Of a stretch of DNA of 48,217 nt, positions 1 through 48,217 are shown one piece after another. Where the stretch lies: positions 1 through 48,217 of IMG/VR virus record IMGVR_UViG_3300036859_000196; one strand, 5' to 3'. Every line of letters starts with the position of its first letter. Positions within the stretch are counted from its first letter, which is position 1. The position numbers were made by a program, and so were the translations under genes. The notes beneath the pieces are model-generated. The model ran no database searches, was not told where the DNA came from, and saw nothing but the letters and a program-made list of their open reading frames with translations. This DNA is from a virus.

Positions 1-125
1 TTACTGTGGATTGGGACCGCGACGTGATGGGCTACTCGCCCGACCGCGTCGACGCCCTGGTGTGGGCGATCACCGAACTGATGCTGGCCAACCGCGCCCG
101 CGGCGGCCTTGTGGGGACGTTCTGA
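1..125 (+). CDS. terL: Terminase large subunit, 3' terminal fragment (window-edge copy of 47403..47527)
   Basis: nt 1..127 identical to 47403..47529 and 48091..48217; stop TGA 123-125 overlaps portal ATG 125-127. Confidence 0.6.
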   Translation, partial: TVDWDRDVMGYSPDRVDALVWAITELMLANRARGGLVGTF

Positions 126-1501
126 TGCGCAAGCATGGCTTCATGTTGCGGTTGCGCACCGCCATCACGGCGTTCTGGCTCGCCAAGGCCTCCGCCGTCG
201 GCCCCCTCATCGCGCGCCTCGTCGTCGGCCGCGCCGTCTATCCCGAGCGAGACTACGCTAAGCTCGCGCAGGAGGCCTACCAGCGCAACAGCGTGGCCTC
301 GTCCGCCATCCGCATGATCGCCGAGTCAGTGGCCCAGATCCCATGGTGCATGTACTCCGGCAAGGGCGACAACCGCACAGAGATCGAGGAGCACCCGTTC
401 CTCGACCTGATGCAGTCGCCCAACCCCACGCAGGACTGGCAGTCGCTGATCACCGCACTGATCAGCAACTACAAGATCAGCGGCAACCTCTACTGCGAGC
501 GGACCGAGGAGGCGAAGATCGAGCGCATGGAGCTCTACGCGCACCGTCCCGACCGCATCACCATCGTGCCGGACGAGACCGGCGTGCCGGCGGCGTACAA
601 GTACCGCTGCGGCGGTGCCGAGCGCGACTTCGAGATCGACATCGACAAGCAGACGCGGCCGCTGCTCCACCTCAAGACGTTCAATCCGCTCAACGACTGG
701 TATGGTCAGAGCCCCCTCGATGCGTGCGCGTGGGCCATCGATCTGCACAACGGCTACTCGTCGCACAATCTGGGCCTGTTGCAGAACAGCGGCAGCCCAT
801 CGGGCGCGCTGGTATTCAGGGGTACCACGCAGGAGCCCGGCTCGCTGGACCCCGACCGGGCCGCGATCCTGCTTGCCCAGATCCGCGGCGAGGAACGCGG
901 CTACGACAAGAACGGCTCGCGAATGCTGCTCGACGGCGGCGAGTGGCAGTGGCTGCAGATGGGCCTCGATGCCGACAAGATGCAGTCGATGGAGGGCAAG
1001 AACCAGGCCGCGCGAGAGATAGCCTTCACGCTCGGCGTCCCCCCGATGCTGCTCGGCATTCCCGGTGACAACACCTATTCCAACTACCAGGAAGCGCGGC
1101 AGGCCTTCTACCAGGAGACCGTCATCCCGCTCGCGAGCATGCTGGTGCGTGCGTTCCAGCAGTGGTTCGCCAAGGCCCTCGGCAAGGGCGTGTATCTGGA
1201 GGCCAACATCGACGATCTCGACGCCCTGGCCGCAGCCCGCGCCGAGCAGTGGGACCGCATCGAGAAGTCCGAGCAGCTCACCACCAACGAGAAGCGCGAC
1301 GCCATGGGCTACGAGCCTGTCGACGGCGGCGACGTGCTGTACGTGAGCGCTGGCAAGATCCCGATCGATCAGGCGGTGGACACCTTCGAGGCCGATCAGG
1401 ACCGCGCCGACGAGGCGCTTGCGGCGAAGAAGCCGCCCAAGGTCAAGTCGGGCGGGCCGGTGTTCAAGTCGCCGCCCGTTGTCCATGAGGCAAGCGAATG
1501 A
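125..1501 (+). CDS. Portal protein (HK97-family-like)
   Basis: 458-aa ORF directly after terL; portal-like size and position; ATG 125 inside longer TTG-initiated ORF 11..1501. Confidence 0.8.
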   Translation: MRKHGFMLRLRTAITAFWLAKASAVGPLIARLVVGRAVYPERDYAKLAQEAYQRNSVASSAIRMIAESVAQIPWCMYSGKGDNRTEIEEHPFLDLMQSPNPTQDWQSLITALISNYKISGNLYCERTEEAKIERMELYAHRPDRITIVPDETGVPAAYKYRCGGAERDFEIDIDKQTRPLLHLKTFNPLNDWYGQSPLDACAWAIDLHNGYSSHNLGLLQNSGSPSGALVFRGTTQEPGSLDPDRAAILLAQIRGEERGYDKNGSRMLLDGGEWQWLQMGLDADKMQSMEGKNQAAREIAFTLGVPPMLLGIPGDNTYSNYQEARQAFYQETVIPLASMLVRAFQQWFAKALGKGVYLEANIDDLDALAAARAEQWDRIEKSEQLTTNEKRDAMGYEPVDGGDVLYVSAGKIPIDQAVDTFEADQDRADEALAAKKPPKVKSGGPVFKSPPVVHEASE

Positions 1502-1875
1502 GCGCCCACGACTACTACAGCGGCAAGGGCCTCCAGCTCCAATCCAAGTATTCCAGCGGGCACGGAACAGTGGTGTTGCAATACGACCGCGATCCAGAAC
1601 TTGACACGATTTGGTACGGTCGCCGGCTCGAAACGGTGCACATCACAATCGCCGAGGATGGCTCGATGTCCGAGACGATTGAGGAGTGGACGGGAGCGCC
1701 GTCGAACGTCAATCACTACTTGGTGCTTGCCGAAGCGCCCCCCGAGTTGCCGACGGATGCACAGATCGATGCCATCCGACAACTCAACCGCGAGGGTCAC
1801 CCCAGTGGTTATGAGGTAATCAAGTGGATCGCCGGCAAAGACGCCGCGGACCGCGCCGGTAGGATGCACGACTAG
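1498..1875 (+). CDS. Hypothetical protein (moron-like, lower GC), starts MSAHDYYS
   Basis: 125-aa ORF, ATGA overlap with portal stop; its first ~26 nt recur at 47968. Confidence 0.5.
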   Translation: MSAHDYYSGKGLQLQSKYSSGHGTVVLQYDRDPELDTIWYGRRLETVHITIAEDGSMSETIEEWTGAPSNVNHYLVLAEAPPELPTDAQIDAIRQLNREGHPSGYEVIKWIAGKDAADRAGRMHD

Positions 1876-5639: not shown

Positions 5640-6061
5640 TGATCCCACACGACCTTCACAACCGGCTGTCGTTCCTGCGCAGCAACGAGCCGGTCACGCT
5701 CACCAACCTCAACACGGCGCAGGTCGGCCAGATCATCGACATGGTCGACCTCATGTCGCTGGAGTACGTCATTGCCGCGGGCGCTCTGACAGACGCTGCC
5801 ATGACGCTGACGCCGCTGGTGGAGCACGGCGACGCATCGAACCTCTCGGATGCCGCAGCGGTGGACGACGTCGACCTCCTCGGCACCGAGGCTGCCGCCA
5901 TCTTCACCCAGGCGGACGACAACGCGGTGAAGACCGTTGGCTACGTCGGCACCAAGCGCTACGTGCGCCTGACGCTGACGCCTGCGGGCAACGACGCCGG
6001 CAGCGCCACTTTTGGAGCCACGGCGGTCGGCATCAAGCGCTTCCGTGGCACTGGCAACTGA
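5640..6061 (+). CDS. Hypothetical protein
   Basis: ATG 5640 inside ORF 5555..6061; co-oriented with late operon. Confidence 0.45.
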
Positions 6062-6133
6062 TGCTGTCGGACTGGCGGTCCTCCGGCCTGGTGCCGAGCA
6101 GGCCCGCCAGCCGACCCCCGCAGGTGGAGAGAA

Positions 6134-6489
6134 TGCGCTACGGCCTACCGCCAGAGCAACCCCCAGAGGCCACGATCCGCGTCCGCATGGTGAAGACCAC
6201 CAAGGCAACGCTGGATGGTGGCCGCACCGCCAAGGTCTACGAGGCCGGGCGGGACTACGATCTCCCGGAGTGGCTGGCGGAAGCGTTCTTCAAAGGTGGG
6301 GAAGGCGACCCCGCCGAGGCGCACGAGGGGCTGGACGCGGCGGGCGAACAGACTCATTCCGAGGCTGCACAAGCAGCAACGGGAGATGGAAATGACGCCA
6401 CAGGCGGCGCTGACCACGATACTGAAGCGTCTCACCCGCCTCGCCAATCGCGGCGACCGCGCGGACCTCGACGCCTTCATGGAGAGTGA
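6134..6489 (+). CDS. Hypothetical protein (frame overlaps next gene)
   Basis: Internal Met MRYGLPPEQ... of ORF 6061..6489; C-terminal half low complexity. Confidence 0.25.
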
Positions 6490-8470: not shown

Positions 8471-8764
8471 ATGGACGAGAAGCGAGCAGCCGACGACGCA
8501 GTCCGGTACCGCGAGGCGCTGTCGATGATCGAGCAGATGCAGCCGATGGCCGACAAGCTCTACGACTGGCGCATCGACCCCAACGGCCGGTTGCGGGACG
8601 CGCTCGACGTATTCCAGCGCACCTGCAGTGACATCATCGAGGCGCTATCCACCGACGCTCTGGCAGAGGGCTTGAACGATTTGTCGCGGGACGGAGGGCG
8701 CATGTTCTCCGACCGCCGCCCGCTCGATGCCAAGGCAAGGGGCGCGCATAGCGTCTACCGCTGA
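8471..8764 (+). CDS. Small acidic helical protein, C-terminal ...ARGAHSVYR tail family
   Basis: ATG 8471 with GAGGAG upstream inside ORF 8267..8764; shared C-terminal motif. Confidence 0.6.
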   Translation: MDEKRAADDAVRYREALSMIEQMQPMADKLYDWRIDPNGRLRDALDVFQRTCSDIIEALSTDALAEGLNDLSRDGGRMFSDRRPLDAKARGAHSVYR

Positions 8765-12780: not shown

Positions 12781-13212
12781 ATGACCGACGCGTTGCGACT
12801 GGAGCGCAAGACTTGGGTCGAAGCTCTGATGTTGATCGCCGGCGGCGCTGCCATGATCACGGCATATGCTGTCTGGGTTGCCGGTAAAATGGCCGTCACC
12901 GAGTTCGGGAAGCGCAAGATCGTTGAGCTTTTCCTGACGGAGGAGGAGCGCATTGAGCGCGAGATTGCTGAGATCGACCTCGATGTTCGGCGCAATGAGC
13001 GCTACCTGGAACGCGGGGCGGTAGATGCACATAGGGACGACGCGCGCGACATCTTGCTCGAGCGCAACGAAGGGCTTCTTGAGCGGCGTGCCGTGCTTGA
13101 TGACAAGCTCCGCGAGCTCCGTCGCGTCATGAGCGAATTTGACGATGTGCCAACCGCAGGCGAGGACGAGAAGTCCGCCCGTGTCCCCGGCGCGCACATG
13201 GTCTACCGATGA
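12781..13212 (+). CDS. Membrane-anchored coiled-coil protein, C-terminal ...VPGAHMVYR tail family
   Basis: N-terminal hydrophobic segment; stop overlaps next ATG (ATGA); shared C-terminal motif. Confidence 0.6.
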   Translation: MTDALRLERKTWVEALMLIAGGAAMITAYAVWVAGKMAVTEFGKRKIVELFLTEEERIEREIAEIDLDVRRNERYLERGAVDAHRDDARDILLERNEGLLERRAVLDDKLRELRRVMSEFDDVPTAGEDEKSARVPGAHMVYR

Positions 13213-17386: not shown

Positions 17387-17967
17387 GCTACTTCTCCAAG
17401 CTCTTCTCCGAGATCTGGCGCGACTACGTCACGGCCGGCGTGCCCGCGTCGGGCGCGCACGATCCGGTCAAGGGGGATATCCGCAACTGGGGTGCCGTGG
17501 TGGAGGAGCACCTGTGGCAGGTGCTGGCCGCCTCGGCGGTGGCGGTCTCGCACACCGTCAGCACGACCGAGACCGCGCTCGCCACCATCCAGATCCCCGC
17601 GAACACGTTGGGGGCCAACGGCATCTTGCGCGTGACGACGCTGTGGACGATCACCAACAGCGCCAATGACAAGACATTGCGCGCGCGCCTCGCGGGCCTG
17701 GTAGGGACGGCCTACCTCGAAGTCGTGCTGACAACGCAAGCCAGTTACCGCGACCAGCGACAGATCGCCAACCGCAACGCCGCGAATTCTCAGATCGGCG
17801 GCTCGTTCTCAGCGCTGGGCGGCTTTGGGAACTCCGGAAACGCCAACGTCACTTCGGCCGTCGACACCACCGCCAACCAGGACCTCGTCATATCCGGCCA
17901 ACTCGAGACCGGTAGCGAGACGATCACGCTCGAAGCCTACCTCGTCGAAGTGTTGAAGCGCGCCTGA
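17383..17967 (+). CDS. Tail fibre protein 1
   Basis: 194 aa; N-terminal FSKLFSEIWRDYVTAGVPASGAHD shared with next gene. Confidence 0.5.
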   Translation: MSYFSKLFSEIWRDYVTAGVPASGAHDPVKGDIRNWGAVVEEHLWQVLAASAVAVSHTVSTTETALATIQIPANTLGANGILRVTTLWTITNSANDKTLRARLAGLVGTAYLEVVLTTQASYRDQRQIANRNAANSQIGGSFSALGGFGNSGNANVTSAVDTTANQDLVISGQLETGSETITLEAYLVEVLKRA

Positions 17968-23218: not shown

Positions 23219-23247
23219 TTGACGTACTGACCTTGAGCGTCTACATT
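23219..23247 (+). promoter_or_regulatory. Sigma70-like promoter inside the left inverted repeat
   Basis: TTGACG, 17-nt spacer, TACATT upstream of transposase start. Confidence 0.4.
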
Positions 23248-23275
23248 GGCGGTCATGAGATCAGGGGATGCCGCC

Positions 23276-24202
23276 ATGAACCTCACCAATTCGATTTTCC
23301 AGGACGCCGAGAAGGCCCGCGAGTTTCTTGAGGCTCAGCGTTGGCCGGATGGTCCCATTTGCCCCCACTGCGGCGTTATCGCTGACGCCACCAAACTCGC
23401 CGGCAAGAGCACGCGAGCTGGCGTCTACAAGTGCAAGTCTTGCGAGAAGCCTTTCACCGTCACGGTCGGCACCGTATTCGAGCGCTCAAAGATCCCACTC
23501 AACAAGTGGTTGCTGGCGACGTTTCTGCTCACGGCTTCCAAGAAGGGAATGAGCAGCCACCAGATCCACCGTAGTCTGGAGGTTACTTACAAGACCGCTT
23601 GGTTCATGACCCATCGCATCCGCGAGGCCATGCGTGACATCAATGCCGGCCCCATCGGTGGCGAGGGCGGCGACCTGGAGAGCGACGAAACTTACATCGG
23701 CGGCAAGGCCAAGAACGCCCACAAGGGCAAGCCCGAGCCGAAGAAGCATGCCGTGCATGCCCTTGTGGAGCGCGGCGGTCGTGTGCGCGCCACCCATGTC
23801 GCCGACGTGACCGCCAGGACGTTGCGCTCGGTCATGGAGAAGCACGCAGACAAGCGTTCTACGCTTCATACGGACGACGGCCTCACGGGCTTGTCCATTG
23901 GCAAGGACTTCGCCGGCAGCACAACCGTCAACCACAGCGCTGGCGAGTATCACCGCTACAAGGACGGCGCCGGCATCCAATCTGCCGAGAGCTTCTTTGC
24001 GATCCTGAAGCGGCAGGTCTACGGAACGCACCACGCGATCAGCGAGGCGCATCTGCAGCGCTATGTGACGGAAGCCACCTTCAAGTGGAACCACCGCATT
24101 GCGCTGGGCGTGGACGACACCGGCCGCGCCAAGGCTGCTCTCAAGTCCATCGGCGGCAAGCGTTTGACCTATGGGACGATTCGTGGAGCCCAGAACGCCT
24201 AA
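23276..24202 (+). CDS. IS1595-family transposase (ISXO2-like DDE)
   Basis: N-terminal zinc ribbon RWPDGPICPHCG...YKCKSCEKPFTVTVGTVFERSKIPLNKWL then LEVTYKTAWFMTHRIREAM. Confidence 0.85.
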   Translation: MNLTNSIFQDAEKAREFLEAQRWPDGPICPHCGVIADATKLAGKSTRAGVYKCKSCEKPFTVTVGTVFERSKIPLNKWLLATFLLTASKKGMSSHQIHRSLEVTYKTAWFMTHRIREAMRDINAGPIGGEGGDLESDETYIGGKAKNAHKGKPEPKKHAVHALVERGGRVRATHVADVTARTLRSVMEKHADKRSTLHTDDGLTGLSIGKDFAGSTTVNHSAGEYHRYKDGAGIQSAESFFAILKRQVYGTHHAISEAHLQRYVTEATFKWNHRIALGVDDTGRAKAALKSIGGKRLTYGTIRGAQNA

Positions 24203-27157: not shown

Positions 27158-27405
27158 ACATCCGCGAGGCCATGCGTGACATCAATGCCGGCCCCATCGG
27201 TGGCGAGGGCGGCGACCTGGAACGCACCACGCGATCAGCGAGGCGCATCTGCAGCGCTATGTGACGGAAGCCACCTTCAAGTGGAACCACCGCATCGCGC
27301 TTGGCGTAGACGATACTGCTCGTGCCAAGGCCGCTCTCAAGTCCATTGGCGGCAAGCGCTTGACGTACGGGACAACTCGTGGAGCCCAGAACGCCTAAGC
27401 AGCGG
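27158..27405 (+). pseudogene. Internally deleted remnant of the IS1595 transposase gene
   Basis: Near-identical to 23618-23691 joined to 24035-24207 (343-bp internal deletion); no inverted repeats nearby. Confidence 0.7.
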
Positions 27406-31120: not shown

Positions 31121-31936
31121 CTAGGTCGGTTCACATGAACCGACCAACGTCCGCGTATCCGAGAAGCGGGGGGGGGCCGCAGGGGTGCTGGCGAGTTCAC
31201 CCACCATCCACTTCGCGGCATCGGCCTTGATCTGCTCGAACACGACGGGGTGCTGGCTCTTGAAGTCCGGCATGCGCGACGACGCCACGTATCCCTGCGC
31301 GGTCGCGTCGAGCCAAATCTGCGTCCAGCGCGCCGCGTCGAGTCCGAGCAGTTTGAAGTCGCGTCGCGTCACGGGTCTCCGCTCCAGAATGGCAACGATC
31401 TTGAGCGCCTTGATCTTCCACGCCGTCAGTTGGACCGGGGCACTATGGCCGGCGCCGCTGTCGGGGACATAGTCAGGGAGGGCGACCCGCTTCACCGGGC
31501 ACCACTCGTGCCAATGTCGGTCATCGCCCCAGCGCTCGGCGACGTGCGGCAGATCGGGTTCGAACCTGCGGCGGTAGACCCGCTCGGACGGTGGCCATAT
31601 CGTTATCACAGTGAGTCCGAGCCAGTTGCAGATCGTGCCGAGCCCGTTCTGCTTTCCTCCTTCTGGCACCAGCACGGCACGACAATCCGGGCCGATCTCG
31701 GCGGCTCCGTACCAACGTTCGGGCAGCGCCTGCACCGCCACCGTGTTGTTGAGGATGAGCTTGGCCTCGATGCCAATCTGGAAGCCGTCTTCCCTGCGAA
31801 CGAGCAGGATGTCCCAGCCGCCAGTCTCGGCATACGCAACCCAGGCGTCACCCTTTGTGACCTGCGTGATGAACTCGGCGCAGAGCGCGACCTCGCTCTC
31901 GAAACCGGGCTTGCGGGATCGCTTCGTGGCCGTCAT
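31121..31936 (-). CDS. Hypothetical protein with PD-(D/E)xK nuclease-like motif
   Basis: Starts at ATG overlapping integrase stop; motif DILLVRREDGFQIGIEAKL; G9 tract encodes PPP near C-terminus. Confidence 0.45.
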   Translation of the reverse strand: MTATKRSRKPGFESEVALCAEFITQVTKGDAWVAYAETGGWDILLVRREDGFQIGIEAKLILNNTVAVQALPERWYGAAEIGPDCRAVLVPEGGKQNGLGTICNWLGLTVITIWPPSERVYRRRFEPDLPHVAERWGDDRHWHEWCPVKRVALPDYVPDSGAGHSAPVQLTAWKIKALKIVAILERRPVTRRDFKLLGLDAARWTQIWLDATAQGYVASSRMPDFKSQHPVVFEQIKADAAKWMVGELASTPAAPPRFSDTRTLVGSCEPT

Positions 31937-33039
31937 TCCCTGCCCCGCTTGTCCTCGATCGCCTTCGGCTCCCGCAGCGACAGCGCATTCGCCGCGCGCT
32001 GCAGGTAGTCCGGGTGGAAGCGCGCATAGACGCGCTCGGTGATCGCCGTGGAAGTGTGGCCCATGTACTGGCTGATCTCCGCCATTGGCAGCCGGGCCTG
32101 GGCCATCCAGACACCGGCGGTGTGGCGGAGCACGTAGGGTGTGACATCGTCGAGCTTGGCGCGGCGTGCGGCAGCCACGATGGCCTGGCGCACGCCCTGG
32201 CGGCCAGTGATGGGAGCCTCGTTGTACTCGATTACCCACTCGGTCTGAGCCATCTCGCGCGCCAGCTTTAGCGTCTCATAGGCCTCCTCATTGAGCGGCA
32301 CGCGAGCGCGGCCCTTGCGGGTGGCATCGCGCTCCGGGTCGTCGAGGTTCACGTGACCGAAGTAGGTGACCCCGCTCTGGGGGTGCGTCCACTTCTTGAG
32401 CGTGACGCGGTCCCATGTGAGCTGCAGGATGTGGCTCGGCCGGCCGGCGGTGGCGAACGCCAGCTGCAGCCACACCTTGACGTGGAACGCCTTGGCGGCG
32501 TCGATCAGTCGGACGGCCTCAGCCTTGGTCAACCACCGCTCACGCGGCCGGGCTGCCGGCGGGCGCTCGATCTCCGGACGGTCGCCTGAATAGAGCTTCT
32601 TCCGCTTGCCAAAGCCGAGCGCCGCAGAGAGATAAACCAGCTCGGACCGGATGCCGCCGTTCGACACCCCATGACCGCGCCGATGCCTGGCATAGGCCCG
32701 GCAGGTGGTGTCCTCGATCTGGTCCGGCATCAGGTGCCCGAAGTGTGATGCCATCGGTTTCCAGGCCTCGCGCATGCGGCGCGCGTCCTTGCCGACCGCC
32801 TCGCGGTCCTTGACGTACAGGTCGTAGATCGAGGCCATGGCAACCGCCTTCCCGTCTTTCCCCTGGCGCTGTGCCTCGGAGAGGCCGCTGTTCCAGCGCG
32901 CTACCTCGCGGTCAGCATCCGGCCGATTGCCCGTTGTCGCTTTGATGCCGAGCGCATGGCGCTGTTTGCTGCGTCCATGCCCCCAGACGACGCACCAGAC
33001 GCCGCGGTGTCGTCCGCGCCTGTAGACTTGATCCCCCAT
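31933..33039 (-). CDS. int: Tyrosine integrase
   Basis: N-terminal RGVWCVVWGHGRSKQRHALG arm-type region; C-terminal VLRHTAGVWMAQA...YMGHTSTAITERVYARF catalytic region. Confidence 0.85.
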   Translation of the reverse strand: MGDQVYRRGRHRGVWCVVWGHGRSKQRHALGIKATTGNRPDADREVARWNSGLSEAQRQGKDGKAVAMASIYDLYVKDREAVGKDARRMREAWKPMASHFGHLMPDQIEDTTCRAYARHRRGHGVSNGGIRSELVYLSAALGFGKRKKLYSGDRPEIERPPAARPRERWLTKAEAVRLIDAAKAFHVKVWLQLAFATAGRPSHILQLTWDRVTLKKWTHPQSGVTYFGHVNLDDPERDATRKGRARVPLNEEAYETLKLAREMAQTEWVIEYNEAPITGRQGVRQAIVAAARRAKLDDVTPYVLRHTAGVWMAQARLPMAEISQYMGHTSTAITERVYARFHPDYLQRAANALSLREPKAIEDKRGRE

Positions 33040-33233
33040 CGCACCAGCAACGCCTCCAGATCCTCGCGCCTCACGCGCACCATGCCGTCGATCCGAACCA
33101 CGGGTAGGCCCGTGCCGGGTTGATCCTTCTCGCGCTCGATCAGCGCGTAGACCTTGCTCTTCGAGCAATCGAGCTCCCGCGCGACGCTGCGGACCGAGAG
33201 AAGACGCGGCGGCAGAACTGCGGTGTCGGTCAT
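32901..33233 (-). CDS. xis: Excisionase / AlpA-like HTH protein
   Basis: LLSVRSVARELDCSKSKVYALIE...LPVVRIDGMVRVRREDLEALL; 3' end overlaps int start. Confidence 0.5.
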   Translation of the reverse strand: MTDTAVLPPRLLSVRSVARELDCSKSKVYALIEREKDQPGTGLPVVRIDGMVRVRREDLEALLVRWGIKSTGADDTAASGASSGGMDAANSAMRSASKRQRAIGRMLTAR

Positions 33234-33451
33234 GGCCCCGCCCTCTCATAGACCCGCGCCAGCTCGGCCCGCGTATAGGCCCCGTCGTAGCGGTCGCTCG
33301 CGGCGTCGACGACCCGGCAGCCCGCCTCGAATTCACGCATCTCGCGGCGGTGCATCCACCACAGCATCGCAAGGCCGCCAGCGAGACCGACGACGCAGCC
33401 GACGAGGCCGCCAAGGGCGCCGACGGCGAGAAGGATCGGATCGAAAGTCAT
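33230..33451 (-). CDS. Small membrane protein
   Basis: Hydrophobic N-terminus ILLAVGALGGLVGCVVGLAGGLAMLWW. Confidence 0.4.
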   Translation of the reverse strand: MTFDPILLAVGALGGLVGCVVGLAGGLAMLWWMHRREMREFEAGCRVVDAASDRYDGAYTRAELARVYERAGP

Positions 33452-36515: not shown

Positions 36516-36799
36516 TACACGGTCTCCTTCTCTGCGCGCTGCTTCGCGACGTTCTCGGCCCACTCCGCGCTGATCTCGACGTACTTCGTCTGCTGCAGGT
36601 GCAGAGCGATGCGCGTGTAGAGCGGATCGTCCTGGGCAAGGGCGACCGATGCGTCGCCAGCGCCCTTCTTCCACCCGTACAGGTCGATGCCGGCGATGTG
36701 CCAACCGCTGCCATCGCAGCGATCGATGCGCGCGGTGCCCTCGTAGAGCGCGATCTCCACGTCTCCGCGCGTCTCTGGAAAATCGAAATTATGGAGCAT
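36515..36799 (-). CDS. Hypothetical protein
   Basis: ATG 36799 with GGAGGAAGG RBS. Confidence 0.45.
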   Translation of the reverse strand: MLHNFDFPETRGDVEIALYEGTARIDRCDGSGWHIAGIDLYGWKKGAGDASVALAQDDPLYTRIALHLQQTKYVEISAEWAENVAKQRAEKETV

Positions 36800-36947
36800 G
36801 CCTTCCTCCCGTTCAGATGTGCGGGCGCGGCCCGCCGTCGAAACCGCGCCCGCCTTGGCTCTCGGGTTGCATTGCGGAGCCCCCGAGAACCAACGCCCTG
36901 CCCTCGCCCCGCTGACCGGGGGCACGGGTGAAACTCCGTGCTGGTTG

Positions 36948-37793
36948 CTATGCGGTCTCAATCAACTCGATCACCTTGTCGGCCATTTTTGTCCACGCCG
37001 CGCTCCACGCCGCGCTCCACGCCGCGCTCTCCGCGCTCCACGCCGCGCTCTCCGCGCTCCACGCCGCGCTCTCCGCGCTCCTCGCCGCGCTCTCCGCGCT
37101 CCTCGCCGCGCTCCTCGCCGCGCTCGCCGCGCTCCTCGCCGCGCTCTCCGCGCTCCACGCCGCGCTCCACGCCGCGCTCCACGCCGCGCTCTCCGCGCTC
37201 ATCGCCGCGCTCCACGCCGCGCTCTCCGCGCTCATCGCCGCGCTCCTCGCCGCGCTCGCCGCGCTCCTCGCCGCGCTCCTCGCCGCGCTCCTCGCCGCGC
37301 TCGCCGCGCTCCTCGCCGCGCTCCTCGCCGCGCTCTCCTCTGGACGTGCGCCCTTGCACATCGGCAAGAGAACGTCAGCACACTGACGCACAGCGTCCCG
37401 CACCAGATCATGCTCGATGCCTGGATTGACGCTGCTGTCTGTCAGCAGCCAATGCAGAAAGCGCCAGCCCACGCAGGACAGATCGGCGCCGGGGCGGATC
37501 GCGCGCATGAAACGCTCGGGCCACGCCTGAGCGGCGCCATTCGGCAGGCCTTCAAAGATCGAGTCTTCCAGGTGTGCCAGCATCACCGGGATGCCGAAGC
37601 GCGTCTCGTACTCCACGTGGTTGTCGCTGTAGAGCGTGCAGCCGACCGCGCACCCCTTGCCGTTCTGCCAATACTGGCCCTTGATGATCTCGTCGGCGGC
37701 GCGGTGGCGGGCGAGTTGGGCCAGGATGTCGATCTTGGCCTGGGGGTCGCCGTGGTAGGCCTGCATCGGGGTGCTCTCCTGCAATGGCGGCAT
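36948..37793 (-). CDS. Protein with globular N-terminal domain and ~29 tetrapeptide repeats
   Basis: Repeats SAAR/SAAW/SAES/SAAS/SAAM encoded by 12-nt units; likely start ATG 37766 (AGGAGA RBS). Confidence 0.55.
   Translation of the reverse strand: MPPLQESTPMQAYHGDPQAKIDILAQLARHRAADEIIKGQYWQNGKGCAVGCTLYSDNHVEYETRFGIPVMLAHLEDSIFEGLPNGAAQAWPERFMRAIRPGADLSCVGWRFLHWLLTDSSVNPGIEHDLVRDAVRQCADVLLPMCKGARPEESAARSAARSAASAARSAARSAARSAASAARSAAMSAESAAWSAAMSAESAAWSAAWSAAWSAESAARSAASAARSAARSAESAARSAESAAWSAESAAWSAESAAWSAAWSAAWTKMADKVIELIETA
36990..37340. repeat. Tandem array of ~29 imperfect 12-nt repeats
   Basis: Units like GCGCTCCACGCC / GCGCTCTCCGCC; all six frames open across the array. Confidence 0.85.
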
Positions 37794-38392
37794 GACGCGG
37801 GAACTCCGGGGACGAATGACTGATGTAGGCCAAGCTAAGGGGAAATCTCCCCCATGTCAATTAATATCTGGGAACTTTCCCCCACTCCTTGCTGAGGCGT
37901 GACCATTCTGCCACGATCAGCACGCGGGGCATTTGGCAGTGTGAGGGGTATGCAATGTTGGTGCGCGTTTCGTTGTTGCTGCTATTGTCGACCTGGTGCG
38001 GTCCATCGCTCGCGCAAGACGCCCGCCTCGACGAAGCCATCAAAGCCGAGCGCAGGGCGGTGCACGATGCGATCAATCTGGCCCAGGAACCGCTGCGGCG
38101 CTTCAGGGCGCCAAAGCCAGCCGGATTGCGCGTCAAAGGACCTCAACGACGCGATCGTATTTAGTCAGGGCATCATCTCTGCTCTGGTGCAGAAGCCAGG
38201 CAACTTGGACCCGACGTTATTCCTGGAGCTTGGGGCGTCTGCGCTTGACGTCGGCGATGGGGCGCGCATAGCGGGTTGCCGCGAGGACGCTCGCAAGATG
38301 TACGACTACGTCATCAGGGTGTTTGTCGGGGGCGCCTATGCCGGCCTGCGCCAGCGGGCGCAGATCGGCATCGATGATCTCCGCGCGGCGCG

Positions 38393-41074: not shown

Positions 41075-41338
41075 ATGGCGCTGAGGTTCATCGACCTTGC
41101 GATTGCCAAGGGCGACCTCAAATTCGGCTACGGAGCAATCGCCGCTCATCTGGAGATCATGACCGGCGAGGAACACACGGTCGGCATGGTAGCGGGATTG
41201 CTCGACAGAGAAGGGAAGCGTAGGCCGCATGAAAAGCAGAAGCCCCCGGCTGCTGACCGCCGAGGGCTTCGAGAACTGAGTAACCCGTCCCGGCAAGGAG
41301 GATCACACATGGACACCAAGGAGGCATCCGATGCCTGA
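41075..41338 (+). CDS. Hypothetical protein
   Basis: Internal Met MALRFIDLAIAKGDLKFGYG... of ORF 41054..41338. Confidence 0.3.
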   Translation: MALRFIDLAIAKGDLKFGYGAIAAHLEIMTGEEHTVGMVAGLLDREGKRRPHEKQKPPAADRRGLRELSNPSRQGGSHMDTKEASDA

Positions 41339-42305
41339 TGAAATAGAGGCAAACGGCGGCAAAAGCAAGGCCCCCAAGCGGAAATCCACGCGCGATAGCG
41401 ACCTTTGGTACAAGCGCTACCCGGCTCGGTTCCGCAGAGACACGATGCACGATCATCCGATGCCGTTCGATCTGCGATGCCAGTGGAGCCTGCTGACCGA
41501 TCTGTTCTACGAGCACGGCGGTCCGCTGCTGAATGACGACCGATGGGTCGCTCTCCAGTTCGGCTGCGACGTGCGCAAATGGAAGCATATCCGCGCGCAG
41601 CTTTTCGCTCATGGGAAACTAACCATCGGCCCCGACGGATTGATCCACAACAAGACCGCCGACGAGGTGATCGGCGAGCGCGCCGACAAGCTCGTAAAGA
41701 CTGCCGTTGCGCCAGCAAGACGACGCCTCGGGAAGGGCGCGACCCCTGCCAGTACCCCTGCCACTACCTCGGTCGGTAGTCCCCCCGGTAGTCCCCCCGG
41801 TACTGGCGCCGATCTTTCCGAAAAGCCCAATGATATCAACGAAGGCGCGCAAAAAACGGCCGGAGACACGCGCGCGTCTTTAGATCTTCCTTCGGAAGAG
41901 AGAAGAGAGATAGAGAGAAGAGAGATCCAGACTCGTCCTTTTTCCTCTGTTGCTGCGCGTGAGGAAAAGGACGACGAGCGCAGGGTCGTTTTTGAAAACG
42001 GCAAGATCGAACTGTTCAACGGGATGCGAGCCTATTGGCTCGATCGGTTCGATGGTGACGGCGACCGACTGGAACTTGGTCTGATCCAGGCAGCGGCGTT
42101 CGTGCAGTCCAACTCGTCACGCCCCATCGAAGCGCAGGTCAGCGCGCAGCTCGCCCGGCAGTGCGCCGAGAGGCACGACCGCGACAAGCGGTACGCGGCC
42201 GCAGCTGACCGCAAGGCGGCAACCAACCCCGCGTCGGGTACAGACCCGCTGATGTCACCCAAACGCGCCCGTGCGCTCGCTGCCTACCAGGAGATGTTCG
42301 GATGA
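41331..42305 (+). CDS. Replication initiation protein (DUF1376/YdaU-like N-terminal domain)
   Basis: WYKRYPARFRRDTMHDHPMPFDLRCQWSLLTDLFYEHGGPL; internal repeats and AT-rich patch. Confidence 0.55.
   Translation: MPDEIEANGGKSKAPKRKSTRDSDLWYKRYPARFRRDTMHDHPMPFDLRCQWSLLTDLFYEHGGPLLNDDRWVALQFGCDVRKWKHIRAQLFAHGKLTIGPDGLIHNKTADEVIGERADKLVKTAVAPARRRLGKGATPASTPATTSVGSPPGSPPGTGADLSEKPNDINEGAQKTAGDTRASLDLPSEERREIERREIQTRPFSSVAAREEKDDERRVVFENGKIELFNGMRAYWLDRFDGDGDRLELGLIQAAAFVQSNSSRPIEAQVSAQLARQCAERHDRDKRYAAAADRKAATNPASGTDPLMSPKRARALAAYQEMFG
41895..41930. repeat. Two tandem ~15-bp direct repeats inside the replication gene, iteron-like
   Basis: AGAGAAGAGAGAT-AGAGAGAAGAGAGAT with adjacent CTTCC..GGAAG inverted repeat and T-run. 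Confidence 0.35.
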
Positions 42306-43077: not shown

Positions 43078-43601
43078 CCAGAGCCCACCGCGACGGCCTC
43101 ATCGCCGCCGCCGTCCTGCTCGCGCTCATCGCGCTGCTCGCCGCCAACGCGCGATCGGAGCCCTACCGCGGCGACTACATCGACGAAGAGCAGCGCGCCA
43201 ACCGCCGCGCGCTGCTGGCGCACAATTGCTTCTGGTACGGAACACACTGCCGCGGCTGGCGCCCGCGCGCGCAGCAGCGCCATGCCCAGCCTTCGATCGA
43301 CAGCGACGTGGTGTGCCATCGCCTCACCGAGGCCACCGGCGAGCAGGCGCAATCGAAGGAAGCCGCAGAGGAGCGCGCGCTTCGCGCTTGGCAAGGCCGC
43401 GTGCGGTTCCACTTCGGCGAAAGATTTATCGCCTTCGATAACGCACGCGACGCGCGCATCGCCTGCTCGCCGTCGTCGGTCGCCGATACGGTGGGCGGCA
43501 AGATCCAGGACAAGCTTCTCGGCATCTCGCACTTCCGCTGCGAGATCTCGGCAAGGCCCTGCCGGGCTCCGGCCCGCAAGGTCAATCGCGGCGATGACTG
43601 A
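43074..43601 (+). CDS. Secreted or membrane-anchored protein
   Basis: N-terminal LIAAAVLLALIALLAANA signal-like segment; several Cys. Confidence 0.45.
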   Translation: MTRAHRDGLIAAAVLLALIALLAANARSEPYRGDYIDEEQRANRRALLAHNCFWYGTHCRGWRPRAQQRHAQPSIDSDVVCHRLTEATGEQAQSKEAAEERALRAWQGRVRFHFGERFIAFDNARDARIACSPSSVADTVGGKIQDKLLGISHFRCEISARPCRAPARKVNRGDD

Positions 43602-43653
43602 TCATCGCCGATGCGTTTCCGTTGCGTTGCGTTTGACATGTCAACAACCAAGG

Positions 43654-44322
43654 ATGAAAACCGCAATGGAATGGTTCAACTCAAGCGACAACCGCAAGAC
43701 GGTTTGGAAGGTCGGTCTGATCTGCCTCGGCGTGCTCGCCGCGGTGATGATCTTCAGCGGCCTGCTCAACAGGGCGCGTGCCGACGGCCCGTCGAAGAAG
43801 GGCCAGATCGCAGCCGCTACGCCCGCGCCAGCCCGGCTATGGACGGGCGTCTACGTCGGCGGCTTCGGCAGCTACGCCACCGGCACGCTGGGCGACTCCG
43901 GCCCCATCGACATCTCGTCGACCGGGCCGTTCGCCGGCCTCAACGTCGGCCTCAACGTGCAGACCGGCCAGATCGTGTGGGGCTTCGAGGTCGCGCACGC
44001 CTGGGCGTTCGGCGACCTCAAGGACATCGGCATCGATCGCGAGCTTGAATACACTGGCCGCGTCGGCGTCCTGTGGAACCCGCAGGCACTGCTGTACGTG
44101 CACGGATCGTTCGCGCAGATCGCGACCAAGTTCGGCGACTTCGAGGGCTGGAAGGGCGGCGTGGGCGTCGAGATCCGCACGCCGTCCGAGGGCTGGTCTA
44201 TGGACCTGCGCGGCGGCTATGCAGACTATGACGTTCACCCCTCAGTTGAGGCGAACATGCTGTGGCTGCGCGTCGGCCTCAACAAGCGGTTCGACATGCC
44301 GGCGGGGTGGTTCGGCCAATGA
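43654..44322 (+). CDS. Outer-membrane beta-barrel-like protein
   Basis: Signal peptide then alternating hydrophobic/aromatic strands, Gly/Tyr-rich; ends ...AGWFGQ. Confidence 0.5.
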   Translation: MKTAMEWFNSSDNRKTVWKVGLICLGVLAAVMIFSGLLNRARADGPSKKGQIAAATPAPARLWTGVYVGGFGSYATGTLGDSGPIDISSTGPFAGLNVGLNVQTGQIVWGFEVAHAWAFGDLKDIGIDRELEYTGRVGVLWNPQALLYVHGSFAQIATKFGDFEGWKGGVGVEIRTPSEGWSMDLRGGYADYDVHPSVEANMLWLRVGLNKRFDMPAGWFGQ

Positions 44323-45516: not shown

Positions 45517-45654
45517 ACGGTCGCGCGGGATCCAAATTCCGCCCCGCCGGGATCTATGGCAGGTGTGGAAATCACTACAGTGGCGCTTCACGCCCACGCC
45601 CCAAGCCCGCCCGCGCCGAACGTGCCGAGGCGGGCTTTCCATTGCCCCACATCG

Positions 45655-46245
45655 ATGGCCAGCAAGCAGAAGTCCCGCTCGAAGTCCGCACCGAAGGCAA
45701 AGCCCGCGAACAGCTCCAAGCGGAGCCGCGGCAGGCCAAGCGACTTCAAGTCGGAGTTCTGCGATCAGGCCGAGAAGCTGTGCAAGCTCCTCAACGCCGA
45801 CGATCTGGCGCTCGCGGCCTTCTTCGAGAAGGACGTCGCCACCATCAACCGATGGAAGAAGGCGCACGCTGAATTCCGCGCGTCGATAAAAAGGGGGAAG
45901 ATCGCGGCCGACATCGAGGTCGCGCACAGCTTTCATGAACGCGCCCGCGGCTACGAGTGGCAAGAGGCCGTGCCGATCAAGCTGAAGACCGTCGAGTACC
46001 ACGATGGCAAGCGGGTCAAGGAGAGCGAGCGCGTCGAGATCGTCATGGTCACAAAGCGCCAACCTGCGGACGTGACGGCGGGCATCTTCTGGATGAAGAA
46101 CCGACAGCACGAGACGTGGCGCGACAAGCACGATCACGCGCACTCCGGCGCCGTCGATGTGAACCTCACAGAGGTACGCGGTGGAATTGCGGGCAAGCTC
46201 GATCGCATCGCTTCCGCCCTCGAAAAGGCAAGCGTTCCTCGATAG
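45655..46245 (+). CDS. terS: Terminase small subunit
   Basis: Basic N-terminus then RGRPSDFKSEFCDQAEKLCKL..DVATINRWKKAHAEFRASIKRGK HTH-like region. Confidence 0.65.
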   Translation: MASKQKSRSKSAPKAKPANSSKRSRGRPSDFKSEFCDQAEKLCKLLNADDLALAAFFEKDVATINRWKKAHAEFRASIKRGKIAADIEVAHSFHERARGYEWQEAVPIKLKTVEYHDGKRVKESERVEIVMVTKRQPADVTAGIFWMKNRQHETWRDKHDHAHSGAVDVNLTEVRGGIAGKLDRIASALEKASVPR

Positions 46246-47527
46246 CCTGAGCGGCGACGAGCTCGCCCACATCGAGCACGACTGGCGCTTCTGGGCTCGC
46301 GACGAGCAACTCGCACCGCCGGGCCTGTGGCGCATATGGCTGCTGCTGGCCGGACGCGGCTTCGGCAAGACCCGCGTCGGTGCCGAGTGGTGCCACGAAC
46401 GCGCCGCCGAGTCCGTCTGCCGCATCGCCATCGTCGGCGCCACGATGGACGACGCCCGCAAGATCTGCGTCGATGGCGAGTCCGGCATCATGGCGTGCGC
46501 CAAGCCGTGGTTCCGCCCGACCTTCGAGCCGTCGAAGAACGGCGGCACGGTGACGTGGCCCAACGGCTCGCTGGCCGAACTCTACTCGGGCGAGAAGCCG
46601 GACGGCCTGCGCGGGCCGCAGTTCCATGCGGCGTGGCTCGACGAGCTGCTGAAGTGGCGCCGCATGCAGGCGGCCTGGGACATGCTCAGGTTCGCGCTGC
46701 GGCTTGGCACTCACCCGCGCACCGTGATAACCACCACGCCGACGCCAGCGAAGCTGATCAAGGACCTGGTCAATGACAAGCGCACGGGGGCGGACGGTTT
46801 GCCCATGGTGCGCGTAGTGCGCGGCTCGACCTACGCCAACGCCGCCAACCTATCGGCCGACGCCCTCGACGAACTGCGCACCAAGTACGAGGGCACCCGC
46901 CTCGGCCGGCAGGAGCTGTTCGGCGAGATCCTCGAAGACCGCCCCGGCGCGCTCTGGACATATGCCAACATCGACGAGCACCGCATCAATGACCCGGAAC
47001 AGGTCCCCAAGCTTGAGCGCACCATCGTCGCCATCGATCCTCCCGTCACTTCGGGCGAGGATGCCGACGAGTGCGGCATCGTCGCCGCCGGGCGGGGGCC
47101 GCACTCGCACGCCTACGTGCTCGGCGATGCGTCCGAGCGGGGCCTCTCGCCTAAGCAATGGGCTCAGAAGGCGCTTCGGCTTTACCACGACACCGGTGCG
47201 GGCCTGATCGTCGCCGAGGCCAACAACGGCGGCGAGATGATCAAGCACGTGATCAACACCGAGGCGCCGGAGGTCAAGGTCAAACTGGTGCACGCTAGCA
47301 AGGGCAAGGTCACCCGCGCCGAGCCGGTGTCGAGCCTCTACGAGCAAGGCCGAGTGCACCACGTCGGCACCTTCAAGGCGCTCGAAGATCAGCAAACTGA
47401 CTTTACTGTGGATTGGGACCGCGACGTGATGGGCTACTCGCCCGACCGCGTCGACGCCCTGGTGTGGGCGATCACCGAACTGATGCTGGCCAACCGCGCC
47501 CGCGGCGGCCTTGTGGGGACGTTCTGA
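46181..47527 (+). CDS. terL: Terminase large subunit (GTA-like family)
   Basis: N-terminal LSGDELAHIEHDWRFWARDEQLAPPGLWRIWLLLAGRGFGKTR (Walker A-like); GTG start overlapping terS. Confidence 0.85.
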   Translation: MELRASSIASLPPSKRQAFLDSLSGDELAHIEHDWRFWARDEQLAPPGLWRIWLLLAGRGFGKTRVGAEWCHERAAESVCRIAIVGATMDDARKICVDGESGIMACAKPWFRPTFEPSKNGGTVTWPNGSLAELYSGEKPDGLRGPQFHAAWLDELLKWRRMQAAWDMLRFALRLGTHPRTVITTTPTPAKLIKDLVNDKRTGADGLPMVRVVRGSTYANAANLSADALDELRTKYEGTRLGRQELFGEILEDRPGALWTYANIDEHRINDPEQVPKLERTIVAIDPPVTSGEDADECGIVAAGRGPHSHAYVLGDASERGLSPKQWAQKALRLYHDTGAGLIVAEANNGGEMIKHVINTEAPEVKVKLVHASKGKVTRAEPVSSLYEQGRVHHVGTFKALEDQQTDFTVDWDRDVMGYSPDRVDALVWAITELMLANRARGGLVGTF

Positions 47528-47529
47528 TG
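47357..47529 (+). repeat. 173-bp direct repeat, copy B (3' end of terL)
   Basis: Identical to 48045..48217; its last 127 nt equal window 1..127. Confidence 0.85.
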
Positions 47530-47946
47530 GGTGACCTACTGGCAAGAGCGAGAGACCTTGCGCAGCGCGCCAGGAGCATTGAGGCGGATGCGCAGCGCCT
47601 TGACGACGCAATGGCCGGATCTCCGACGAGAAGTGAGGTCGAGCGCGCAGTCGACGAAGCTCAGCGGCTTAAGCCCGCCGTCTCGGCTCTCGCCAGGGGA
47701 CAGCACGCCCTCATCGATGAGGCCGGCCGCCTCGATGACGTCGATGACGCACCCGGCATCGAGGATGCCGTTGGCGCACTATTCGACGATCTGGAGTTCG
47801 ACGCCGAGCGCATCCTCTGGCTCATCAACAGCGTCATCTATGATGGTGGGAAGTACCTATCCACCCATACGCACGACACGTTTAACGATTGGCTAGACGC
47901 GAACAAATCGGCCCCTCGCCCCGGCGCTCACGCCGTCTACCGCTAA
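47527..47946 (+). CDS. Small acidic helical protein, C-terminal ...RPGAHAVYR tail family
   Basis: ATG 47527 overlaps terL stop (TGATG); shared C-terminal motif. Confidence 0.6.
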   Translation: MGDLLARARDLAQRARSIEADAQRLDDAMAGSPTRSEVERAVDEAQRLKPAVSALARGQHALIDEAGRLDDVDDAPGIEDAVGALFDDLEFDAERILWLINSVIYDGGKYLSTHTHDTFNDWLDANKSAPRPGAHAVYR

Positions 47947-47967
47947 CCGCGCCCTGAGGTACATCAT

Positions 47968-48044
47968 ATGAGCGCGCACGACTACTACAGCGACCTGCGC
48001 GGCAAAGGCGAAGTCGTCCATGTGCGCGAAAGGGTCGAGAGCGT
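47968..48044 (+). pseudogene. Truncated 5' copy of the MSAHDYYS gene (homologous to start of 1498..1875)
   Basis: First ~26 nt near-identical to 1498-1523; frame then runs into the terL 3' repeat. Confidence 0.4.
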
Positions 48045-48217
48045 CACCACGTCGGCACCTTCAAGGCGCTCGAAGATCAGCAAACTGACTTTACTGTGGA
48101 TTGGGACCGCGACGTGATGGGCTACTCGCCCGACCGCGTCGACGCCCTGGTGTGGGCGATCACCGAACTGATGCTGGCCAACCGCGCCCGCGGCGGCCTT
48201 GTGGGGACGTTCTGATG
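48045..48217 (+). repeat. 173-bp direct repeat, copy C (terL 3' end remnant)
   Basis: Identical to 47357..47529; continues as window 1..127. Confidence 0.85.

What the first reader, a model, noticed from the sequence alone, without database searches (positions are those of the whole stretch)
47357..48217. Repeat-flanked cassette between terL and portal carrying a tail-family gene and a truncated gene start
The last 173 bp of terL (47357..47529) recur as a direct repeat at 48045..48217, continuing into window position 1..127 and the portal start. Between the copies lie the tail-family gene 47527..47946 and a 5' fragment (47968..48044) homologous to the start of gene 1498..1875. This looks like a moron cassette gained by homologous recombination, leaving a duplicated terL 3' end. 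It also implies the tail-family genes are mobile between junctions.
Basis: seen in the sequence. Interest (0 to 1): 0.6.

Follow-up and report, generated by a model that had tools for sequence, protein, structure and literature searches.

The report
Recombination scar at phage terminase–portal junction
A temperate phage genome carries a small extra gene between its DNA-packaging and portal genes, flanked by an exact 173-base duplicate of the packaging gene's end and a cut-off gene start; this looks like a fresh but ordinary scar of phage gene shuffling at a junction that varies in all its relatives.

Summary
A 173-bp exact direct repeat (R: 47357-47529 and 48045-48217) flanks a 515-bp insert. 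The insert holds an intact 139-aa gene (47527-47946) and a 77-bp gene start (47968-48044). The supposed continuation into 1..127 is not a third copy: it is a 127-bp end overlap of a circular de Bruijn contig, and the contig is cut exactly at the last 127 bases of R.

Relatives show that the terL|portal junction is hypervariable. It is empty in the closest relative (L003), and holds a full-length homologue of the truncated gene in L015/L016. Elsewhere it holds other small genes ending in the same C-terminal peptide (GAHxVYR).

Best reading (0.6): a donor junction cargo was patched in by one homologous crossover in the conserved terL 3' end and one illegitimate join at 48044|48045. That join truncated the donor's second gene and duplicated R, which keeps the portal's ribosome-binding context.

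It is not a classical moron: no promoter or terminator was found, and its start overlaps the terL stop. Without reads, how many genomes carry the loop is unknown.

The scar itself is ordinary. The more curious by-product is a clade-restricted set of small late-operon proteins that share only a terminal peptide, one of which sits at different junctions in different phages.

The parts
46181..47527 (+). terL, terminase large subunit (448 aa), complete, ends inside R copy 1
   Evidence: Pfam Terminase_6N 1.3e-33 and Terminase_6C 1.2e-18; PHROG terminase large subunit; relatives at 84-78% identity.
47357..47529 (+). R copy 1: the last 57 codons of terL, its stop, and the ATG of the next gene
   Evidence: 173 nt, 100% identical to 48045-48217. 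It starts on a terL codon boundary (HHVGTFKALEDQ..) and ends exactly at ..CTGATG.
47527..47946 (+). geneX: 139-aa orphan gene, helical bundle with a disordered C-terminal peptide ..KSAPRPGAHAVYR
   Evidence: Intact ORF whose ATG overlaps the terL TGA. GC1/2/3 are 0.73/0.45/0.71, against GC3 of 0.88 (terL) and 0.91 (portal). No Pfam, PHROG or NCBIfam hit. Only itself was found among 5.8e9 protein clusters and 1.84e9 representatives. AF2 pLDDT is 80, with four helices and the last 14 aa unstructured.
47947..47967 (+). 21-nt spacer with a GAGG Shine-Dalgarno for the truncated gene
   Evidence: Sequence CCGCGCCCTGAGGTACATCAT, followed by ATG.
47968..48044 (+). gY': the first 25-26 codons of an MSAHDYYS.. 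gene, cut off by the join to R. The reading frame runs on out of frame into R, giving a 49-aa chimeric ORF that ends at 48117
   Evidence: 63% identity over 19 aa to the 92-aa gene that follows terL in L015/L016. 24/25 nt match to the start of 1498-1875. Chimeric ORF translation.
48045..48217 (+). R copy 2: non-coding duplicate of the terL 3' end that supplies the upstream context and ATG of portal
   Evidence: In the terL frame there is a stop at 47955-47957 and no start codon before 48096. The same ..GTGGGGACGTTCTGATG precedes both geneX and portal.
1..127 (+). Assembler end overlap (identical to 48091-48217), not a separate copy
   Evidence: Exact 127-nt identity of the two contig ends. 127 is the largest k in common metaSPAdes settings, and contig ends at repeats carry maxK overlaps (PMC10914622).
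125..1501 (+). portal gene (458 aa)
   Evidence: Pfam Phage_portal 6.8e-65. Its N-terminus aligns from residue 1 with the portal of L006.
1498..1875 (+). g1498: 125-aa gene after portal. It shares only the MSAHDYYS start with gY'
   Evidence: L003 has an MSAYDYYSG.. gene at the same place.
8471..8764 (+). Second window gene with the GAHxVYR tail (97 aa, head-tail connector region)
   Evidence: Ends ..DAKARGAHSVYR. Homologous to the L007 gene ending at 20286, in the same position.
12781..13212 (+). Third window gene with the GAHxVYR tail (143 aa, TM helix plus coiled coil), between tape measure and distal tail protein
   Evidence: Ends ..KSARVPGAHMVYR. Homologous (E = 9e-8 without the peptide) to the gene after portal in L016. 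Flanking genes identified.

Best explanation
The window is a complete, circularly assembled genome (48,090 bp) of a temperate siphovirus, probably of an alphaproteobacterium.

In its clade the gap between terL and portal is a hot spot that holds different small late-operon genes in different phages.

The proposed event (inferred, not observed): a relative carrying terL-geneX-gY at this junction recombined with a phage whose terL and portal were adjacent, as in L003.
- The left crossover was homologous, inside the very conserved last ~120 nt of terL.
- The right crossover was illegitimate. It joined nucleotide 77 of the donor's second gene (gY) to a point 173 nt before the end of the recipient's terL.

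The product is terL-R-geneX-gY'-R-portal.
- It has an intact terL and an intact new gene coupled to the terL stop.
- It has a dead 5' gene fragment.
- It has a non-coding second copy of the terL end, which keeps the original ribosome-binding context and ATG in front of portal.

The exact identity of the two R copies and the unpruned fragment indicate a recent event. RecA or phage recombinases should delete the 688-bp unit at some rate.

What is shown: the repeat, the junction sequences, the gene content and the states of the relatives. What is inferred: the order and mechanism of the crossovers, the recency, and the RBS argument.
For: - Exact 173-nt repeat with 688-nt spacing.
- R ends precisely at the shared ATG of geneX and portal, and begins at an unrelated position in mid-terL, abutting a 77-nt gene start.
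- The gene start is homologous to a full 92-aa gene placed directly after terL in L015/L016.
- The closest relative, L003, has the empty junction and otherwise the same gene order.
- Other clade members carry one or two small genes there: L002/L178, L005, L006, L007, L177.
- None of seven relatives checked has a terL 3' duplication, and the other two family genes of the window have no flanking repeats. The scar is therefore a one-off, not a systematic feature.
- R holds 61-65-nt exact tracts shared with L003 and L016, even though terL protein identity is only 81-84%.
- There is no break in identity to L003 at the start of R. This fits a small patch rather than a swap of a whole genome arm.
- geneX shows a coding signature and a confident helical model.
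Against: - No reads or coverage are available. The contig begins exactly at the last 127 nt of R, so the assembler treated R as a collapsed repeat edge and chose how to walk the loop.
- The donor was not found: geneX has no homologue anywhere.
- No second assembly of this phage could be retrieved.
- Identity of the two R copies would also result from assembler collapse.
- The direction of change (gain here versus loss in the L003 lineage) is not proven.
Confidence: 0.6

Rival explanations
1. Assembly-graph effect. In a k = 127 de Bruijn graph, R is one edge shared by two loops: the main genome and the 515-bp cassette. The contig is one walk through this figure-8. The cassette junctions exist in some molecules, but perhaps only in a minority variant, in tandem copies, or in an excised 688-bp circle, while the dominant genome is terL-R-portal (47,402 bp).
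For: The contig starts at offset 47 of R (the last 127 nt) and ends at the end of R, with an exact 127-nt overlap. Contigs break at repeats with maxK end sequences (PMC10914622). The closest relative has the empty junction. No independent assembly of the phage was found.
Against: Both cassette junctions (R-end|geneX and gY'|R-start) must be covered by overlapping 128-mers from real reads. The gY'|R join cannot arise from a mixture of two ordinary strains. The cassette content is biologically coherent for this junction: an intact coupled gene, a Shine-Dalgarno sequence, and a homologue of the junction gene of a relative.
Confidence: 0.22
2. Origin within a single genome. An ancestor terL-geneX-gY-portal underwent template switching or unequal exchange that copied R in front of portal, followed by deletion of the rest of gY. 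No second parent is involved.
For: The two R copies are identical. L007 shows that a two-gene junction (a GAH-tail gene plus a second small gene) exists in the clade.
Against: A single unequal exchange would duplicate geneX as well, and geneX is present once. Two precisely placed switches are needed, the second ending exactly at the portal ATG. L003 shows that a terL|portal parent type exists.
Confidence: 0.1
3. Break-induced rearrangement at an intein homing site. Relatives carry an intein with an HNH endonuclease in terL at ALEDQM|C, 13 codons into the region equal to R. A cut in an intein-free allele during co-infection, repaired from a non-allelic template, produced the duplication whose left edge lies 39 nt from that site.
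For: L004 and L176 terL genes contain Hint/intein domains plus an HNH ORF at this site. The window allele reads ALEDQQT, without the Cys.
Against: The evidence is proximity only. No endonuclease or intein remnant is present in the window's terL or cassette. The repeat edge does not coincide with the insertion point.
Confidence: 0.04
4. A maintained, reversible cassette. The 173-bp repeats are kept so that geneX can be lost and regained (population-level on/off switching), or so that R copy 2 can act as a regulatory element for portal.
For: R copy 2 places the same upstream 173 nt, including GGGGA about 10 nt before the ATG, in front of portal as in front of geneX.
Against: The arrangement is unique to this genome among all relatives examined. 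The truncated gene serves no evident purpose. No promoter-like or terminator-like site was found.
Confidence: 0.04

Closest known systems
Mosaic joints made by illegitimate recombination between phage genomes (Hendrix/Hatfull model of phage mosaicism), helped by relaxed homologous recombination at short conserved tracts (De Paepe et al. 2014, PMC3945230, listed; model otherwise from own knowledge)
   Same: Abrupt change from identity to unrelated sequence. One join lies inside genes (gY codon 26 to terL codon 393). Relatives carry alternative cargo at the same junction. A conserved flanking gene end could serve as the homology arm.
   Different: Most described joints are already trimmed to gene borders. 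Here the by-products are still present: a dead gene start and an exact 173-bp duplicate.
Morons (HK97 gene 15 type; definition in PMC3594210)
   Same: Extra DNA relative to the closest relative, inserted between two conserved late genes. Lower GC3 than its neighbours.
   Different: No own promoter or terminator was detected. The start codon overlaps the terL stop, so it is read as part of the late operon. Expression from a prophage is unknown.
Campbell-type (single crossover) insertion-duplication
   Same: The insert is flanked by direct repeats equal to the homology segment. Topologically the structure equals integration of a 688-bp circle R+geneX+gY' at R.
   Different: There is no evidence for a circular intermediate or a site-specific recombinase. 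The circle itself would need an illegitimate join.
Self-circular metagenomic contigs with a maxK end overlap (PMC10914622)
   Same: Exact 127-nt identity of the two contig ends.
   Different: Here the overlap lies inside a longer (173-nt) genuine internal repeat. That is why a reader without tools saw three copies.
Terminal targeting peptides of capsid cargo: the T4 capsid targeting sequence, the HK97 protease C-terminal region, and encapsulin cargo-loading peptides (from own knowledge, not tested)
   Same: A short conserved peptide at the extreme end of otherwise unrelated small proteins encoded among head and tail genes. It is predicted to be disordered.
   Different: No sequence resemblance was established, no partner is known, and virion localisation is untested. 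One member has a TM helix.

Membership tests
Moron | Extra DNA between genes that are adjacent in close relatives | tested here: met
   L003 has terL TGA-ATG portal with nothing between them. The window has 688 extra bp.
Moron | Own promoter and terminator (independent transcription unit) | tested here: not met
   0 promoter-like and 0 terminator-like sites in 46900-48217 (a sigma-70 consensus scan only). The ATG overlaps the terL stop.
Moron | Base composition different from the neighbours | tested here: inconclusive
   Cassette GC is 62.7% against 65.2% for the genome. geneX GC3 is 0.71 against 0.88 and 0.91 for its neighbours, but protease (0.77), g1498 (0.75) and other small genes are similar.
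Moron | Expressed from the repressed prophage, with benefit to the host | not testable with these tools
   No expression data.
Illegitimate-recombination mosaic joint | Novel join between non-homologous positions that truncates a gene | tested here: met
   gY' stops after 77 nt and abuts terL codon 393, out of frame. The full-length homologue in L016 is 92 aa.
Illegitimate-recombination mosaic joint | Relatives show the parental arrangements | tested here: met
   terL|portal is seen in L003. terL|gY|portal is seen in L015/L016. terL|GAH-tail gene(+gene)|portal is seen in L006, L007, L002 and L177. The exact donor with geneX was not found.
Illegitimate-recombination mosaic joint | No or only micro-homology at the join | not testable with these tools
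   The donor gY sequence beyond nt 77 is unknown.
Self-circular de Bruijn contig | Exact end overlap of length maxK | tested here: met
   1-127 = 48091-48217 at 100%. maxK is 127 in common metaSPAdes settings (PMC10914622).
Physical terminal redundancy / concatemer artefact as the source of the 173-bp repeat | The repeat lies at the genome ends and contains the same sequence on both sides without a unique insert | tested here: not met
   The two R copies are 688 nt apart and enclose unique coding sequence. Only the 127-nt overlap is terminal.
Intein / homing-endonuclease insertion in terL | Hint or endonuclease domain in terL or in the insert | tested here: not met
   Window terL matches only Terminase_6N/6C, and geneX has no family hit. 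Inteins are present in relatives L004 and L176 only.
GAHxVYR-tail protein set (defined here) | K-x(1-4)-G-A-H-x-[VILF]-Y-[RK] within 2 residues of the stop, on the late-operon strand | tested here: met
   geneX ends KSAPRPGAHAVYR*. On the coding strand of 168 loci, 10 of 10 occurrences of the core motif were terminal, and all lay in the window's clade.

The most novel reading that the evidence does not exclude
The cassette is a snapshot of how a clade-specific set of small late-operon proteins moves between gene junctions. These proteins are unrelated in sequence except for a shared terminal peptide. The peptide is C-terminal K..GAHxVYR on 17 genes in 9 phages, or a similar N-terminal MSAHDYYSG on five. 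It would be a portable docking or encapsidation tag (or a nascent-peptide signal acting at the coupled stop codon) that lets any helical cargo plug into the same partner in virion assembly.
Probability: 0.2. Interest if true: 0.65.

Novelty: new member of a known kind. Interest (0 to 1): 0.3.

Why it matters
If read-level data confirm it, this is a clean natural example of a phage mosaic joint caught before trimming. It keeps both by-products, a truncated gene and an exact duplicate of the neighbouring gene end. It also has a relative with the empty site and a relative with the full-length version of the truncated gene. That illustrates the accepted model of phage gene shuffling but does not change it.

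Practically, it shows how a k-mer end overlap that falls inside a real internal repeat can mimic a three-copy repeat.

The side observation could be worth an experiment, because it would be directly testable by virion proteomics and tail-deletion mutants. It concerns unrelated small structural-operon proteins that share only a terminal peptide, one of which is found at different junctions in different phages.

Tried and rejected
- Retrieving the source contig or other assemblies of the same phage. Exact-protein look-ups of geneX and terL found nothing on record. A 20-nt R-end pattern in metagenome contigs gave 7 chance hits, about 40% identity to R, next to signal-peptide genes.
- Homologues of geneX. 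None in isolated phages or IMG/VR. Only itself among 5.8e9 clusters. A profile of the three window members found only those three in 1.84e9 representatives.
- Family and fold assignment of geneX. Pfam, PHROGs and NCBIfam gave nothing. Foldseek against BFVD and PDB gave no match with E <= 0.001, only generic helical bundles.
- A mosaic breakpoint at the start of R. Sliding identity to L003, L016 and L005 shows no step there.
- Similar duplications in relatives, or flanking repeats around the other two family genes. None found.
- A diversity-generating retroelement reading of the 24023/27219 repeat. Rejected: the mismatches are mostly C/T transitions and not adenine-specific, and the gene is an IS1595-type transposase.
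- Homology between the C-terminal half of the window's MuF protein and the long GAH-tail proteins of L001/L002. None found.

Full report
**1. Observation.**
The sequence is as described.
- The repeat finder reports a 173-nt, 100% identical direct repeat R at 47357-47529 and 48045-48217, 688 nt apart.
- R copy 1 is the last 57 codons of terL (46181-47527; Terminase_6N/6C) plus the ATG that overlaps its stop. After copy 1 the ATG opens a 139-aa ORF (47527-47946).
- After copy 2, through the circular closure, the same ATG opens portal (125-1501; Phage_portal).
- Between the ORF and copy 2 lie a 21-nt spacer with a GAGG Shine-Dalgarno and 77 nt that start MSAHDYYS. These 77 nt run out of frame into R, giving a 49-aa chimeric ORF.
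- In the terL frame, copy 2 has an upstream stop at 47955-47957 and no start codon before 48096. It is therefore a non-coding duplicate.

**2. What the '1..127' copy is.**
- Positions 1-127 are identical to 48091-48217 and to 47403-47529. An exact 127-nt end overlap is the signature of a self-circular contig from a de Bruijn assembler run with largest k = 127. Contigs that end at repeats carry maxK end sequences, and 127 is the usual top k for metaSPAdes (PMC10914622).
- The contig starts exactly at the last 127 nt of R. In the graph, R was therefore a single shared edge with two loops, the genome and the 515-bp cassette, and the contig is one walk through that figure-8.
- Consequences: the real molecule is 48,090 bp, and there are two copies of R, not three. 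Both cassette junctions must exist in reads. How many genomes carry the loop was decided by the assembler and cannot be checked here.
- I could not retrieve the contig's own record, or any second assembly of this phage.

**3. Context.**
- The window is a complete temperate siphovirus. It has terS (45556-46245), terL, portal, MuF (1880-3166), S78 protease (3163-3867) and HK97-fold capsid (3880-5226). Further genes are the tape measure (10919-12778), distal tail protein, fibre, endolysin, tyrosine integrase (31933-33414, minus strand) and an S24 repressor.
- Remote terL relatives are mostly prophages of Alphaproteobacteria.

**4. Relatives.**
No isolate phage is close. The nearest terL proteins are 84-78% identical. 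I read the terL-portal junction in eleven clade members:
- L003, L001 and L004/L176: adjacent genes. The last two carry an intein in terL.
- L005: a 135-aa gene starting MSAHAYYNG.
- L015/L016: a 92-aa gene starting MSAHDYYGGMLAKGDVVQV. This is the homologue of the window's 77-nt fragment (63% over 19 aa).
- L006, L002/L178 and L177: one gene ending in ..GAHxVYR/K.
- L007: such a gene plus a second small gene.

The junction is therefore a hot spot, and an occupied junction is normal.

L003 is the closest sequence: about 0.9 nt identity across the terL 3' half and 166/173 in R. It has the window's gene order minus the 688-bp unit, including an MSAYDYYSG gene after portal. No relative has a duplicated terL end.

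**5. Mechanism.**
- The right edge of R is the start codon shared by geneX and portal. The left edge of copy 2 is a join between codon 26 of gY and codon 393 of terL, out of frame.
- Homologous recombination cannot make that join, so one illegitimate event is required.
- The simplest history is a two-crossover patch. The homologous crossover lay in the conserved terL 3' end, where R shares exact tracts of 65, 61 and 38 nt with L003, L016 and L006. The illegitimate crossover went from the donor's gY to the recipient's terL, 173 nt before its end.
- A crossover near the 3' end of R explains why both copies are identical without needing a near-identical donor.
- Identity to L003 shows no step at the start of R. 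This fits a patch rather than an exchange of a genome arm.
- The duplicate keeps portal behind its original upstream sequence (..GTGGGGACGTTCTGATG). That is a plausible reason this particular product was viable (inference).
- The exactness of the repeat and the untrimmed fragment argue for a recent event. Direct repeats of 173 bp should recombine out (inference).
- The donor was not found, because geneX is an orphan.

**6. Is it a moron?**
By the definition in PMC3594210, only partly.
- It is extra DNA relative to the closest relative.
- No promoter-like or terminator-like site is present.
- The start is coupled to the terL stop.
- Composition differs only modestly: GC 62.7% against 65.2%, and GC3 0.71 against 0.88-0.91, similar to other small genes.
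- It behaves as late-operon cargo.

**7. The 'tail family'.**
- Three window genes end in GAHxVYR, with stops at 8764, 13212 and 47946.
- In the clade I found 17 such genes in 9 phages, all on the late-operon strand.
- On the coding strand of 168 loci, all 10 occurrences of GAH-x-[VILM]-[YF] were within two residues of a stop. All lay in phages with terL about 70% or more identical to the window's.
- Codons vary synonymously: Arg is CGN or AGR, and Gly is GGC, GGA or GGT. The constraint is therefore on the peptide.
- The proteins are otherwise unrelated. With the peptide removed, only three pairs are homologous. Two pairs sit at the same place. The third pairs window 12781-13212 (after the tape measure) with the L016 gene after portal (E = 9e-8).
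- geneX is predicted as a four-helix bundle (pLDDT 80) with the last 14 residues disordered. No fold or family match was found.
- A second shared peptide, N-terminal MSA[HY]xYY[SGN]G, heads four otherwise unrelated genes plus the window fragment, always directly after terL or portal. It resembles the C-terminal one (AH-x-[YV]-Y).
- The function is unknown. A docking or encapsidation tag, or a nascent-peptide effect at coupled stop codons, are untested ideas.

**8. Verdict.**
However, an illegitimate join is essential, the unit is not a classical moron, and the junction is normally occupied in this clade.
- The finding is a new example of a known process, phage mosaicism by illegitimate plus short-homology recombination. 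The caveat is that its frequency in the population rests on an assembler's walk through a repeat.
- Interest is modest (0.3). The terminal-peptide gene set is the part that might repay further work.

Noticed in passing
window 8471-8764, 12781-13212, 47527-47946; L001 ends 5208 and 7288; L002 ends 7778 and 11145; L004 ends 1733 and 9948; L006 end 9143; L007 ends 11756, 20286 and 21192; L016 (oriented) 5982-6488; L176 ends 14252 and 14944; L177 11341-12279: Small, mostly acidic helical proteins of the late operon, unrelated to each other except for an extreme C-terminal peptide K-x(1-4)-GAH-x-[VILF]-Y-[RK]. The set is restricted to the window's clade. The peptide is conserved at the protein level and is predicted to be disordered. 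There is no Pfam, PHROG or NCBIfam family. One homologous pair sits at different junctions.
   Followed up: partly
window 1498 and 47968; L003 2527; L005 9350; L015 5624 / L016 4310: An N-terminal peptide MSA[HY]xYY[SGN]G heads four otherwise unrelated genes and the truncated fragment, always directly after terL or portal. It resembles the C-terminal GAHxVY peptide (AH-x-[YV]-Y).
   Followed up: partly
L004 5989-8202 and L176 10001-12199 (terL); equivalent to window about 47396: Relatives carry an intein (Hint domains) with an HNH endonuclease ORF in another frame. It is inserted in terL at ALEDQM|C, 13 codons into the region that is duplicated in the window. The window allele reads ALEDQQT.
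   Followed up: partly
window 23246-24202 and 27159-27402: An IS1595-type transposase gene (DDE_Tnp_IS1595 plus zinc ribbon) and, 3.5 kb downstream, a partial copy lacking 343 internal nt (63 nt at 100% followed directly by 184 nt at 92%). This is a second rearrangement remnant in this genome. It is not a DGR pair, since the mismatches are mostly C/T.
   Followed up: yes
window 36992-37338: A tandem array with a 33-nt period (12+12+9), about 10 copies and 84% matches, inside overlapping long ORFs on both strands (36798-37823 plus, 36948-37793 minus). No Pfam hit.
   Followed up: no
window 17391-17490 and 17983-18082: A 100-nt direct repeat at 82% identity at the starts of two consecutive genes downstream of the tail fibre gene. 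These look like paralogous N-terminal modules.
   Followed up: no
window 2630-3163 (MuF residues about 250-428); L007 13450-14700: The MuF protein carries a ~180-aa C-terminal extension with no family hit, conserved in L007. It is absent from the short MuF genes of L001, L002 and L005, which are instead followed by a 406-430-aa coiled-coil gene with the GAH tail.
   Followed up: partly
window 43282-44322; L005 5693-6394; L006 5105-5788; L007 7729-8331; L178 6047-6649: An outer-membrane beta-barrel (OMP_b-brl) gene is conserved a few genes upstream of terS in this phage clade.
   Followed up: no
L006 2042-2162; L007 6529-6637: Tandem arrays with an 11-nt period (7-8 copies) inside the DUF1376 replication-region genes of relatives, iteron-like. 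The window's DUF1376 gene is 41331-42305.
   Followed up: no
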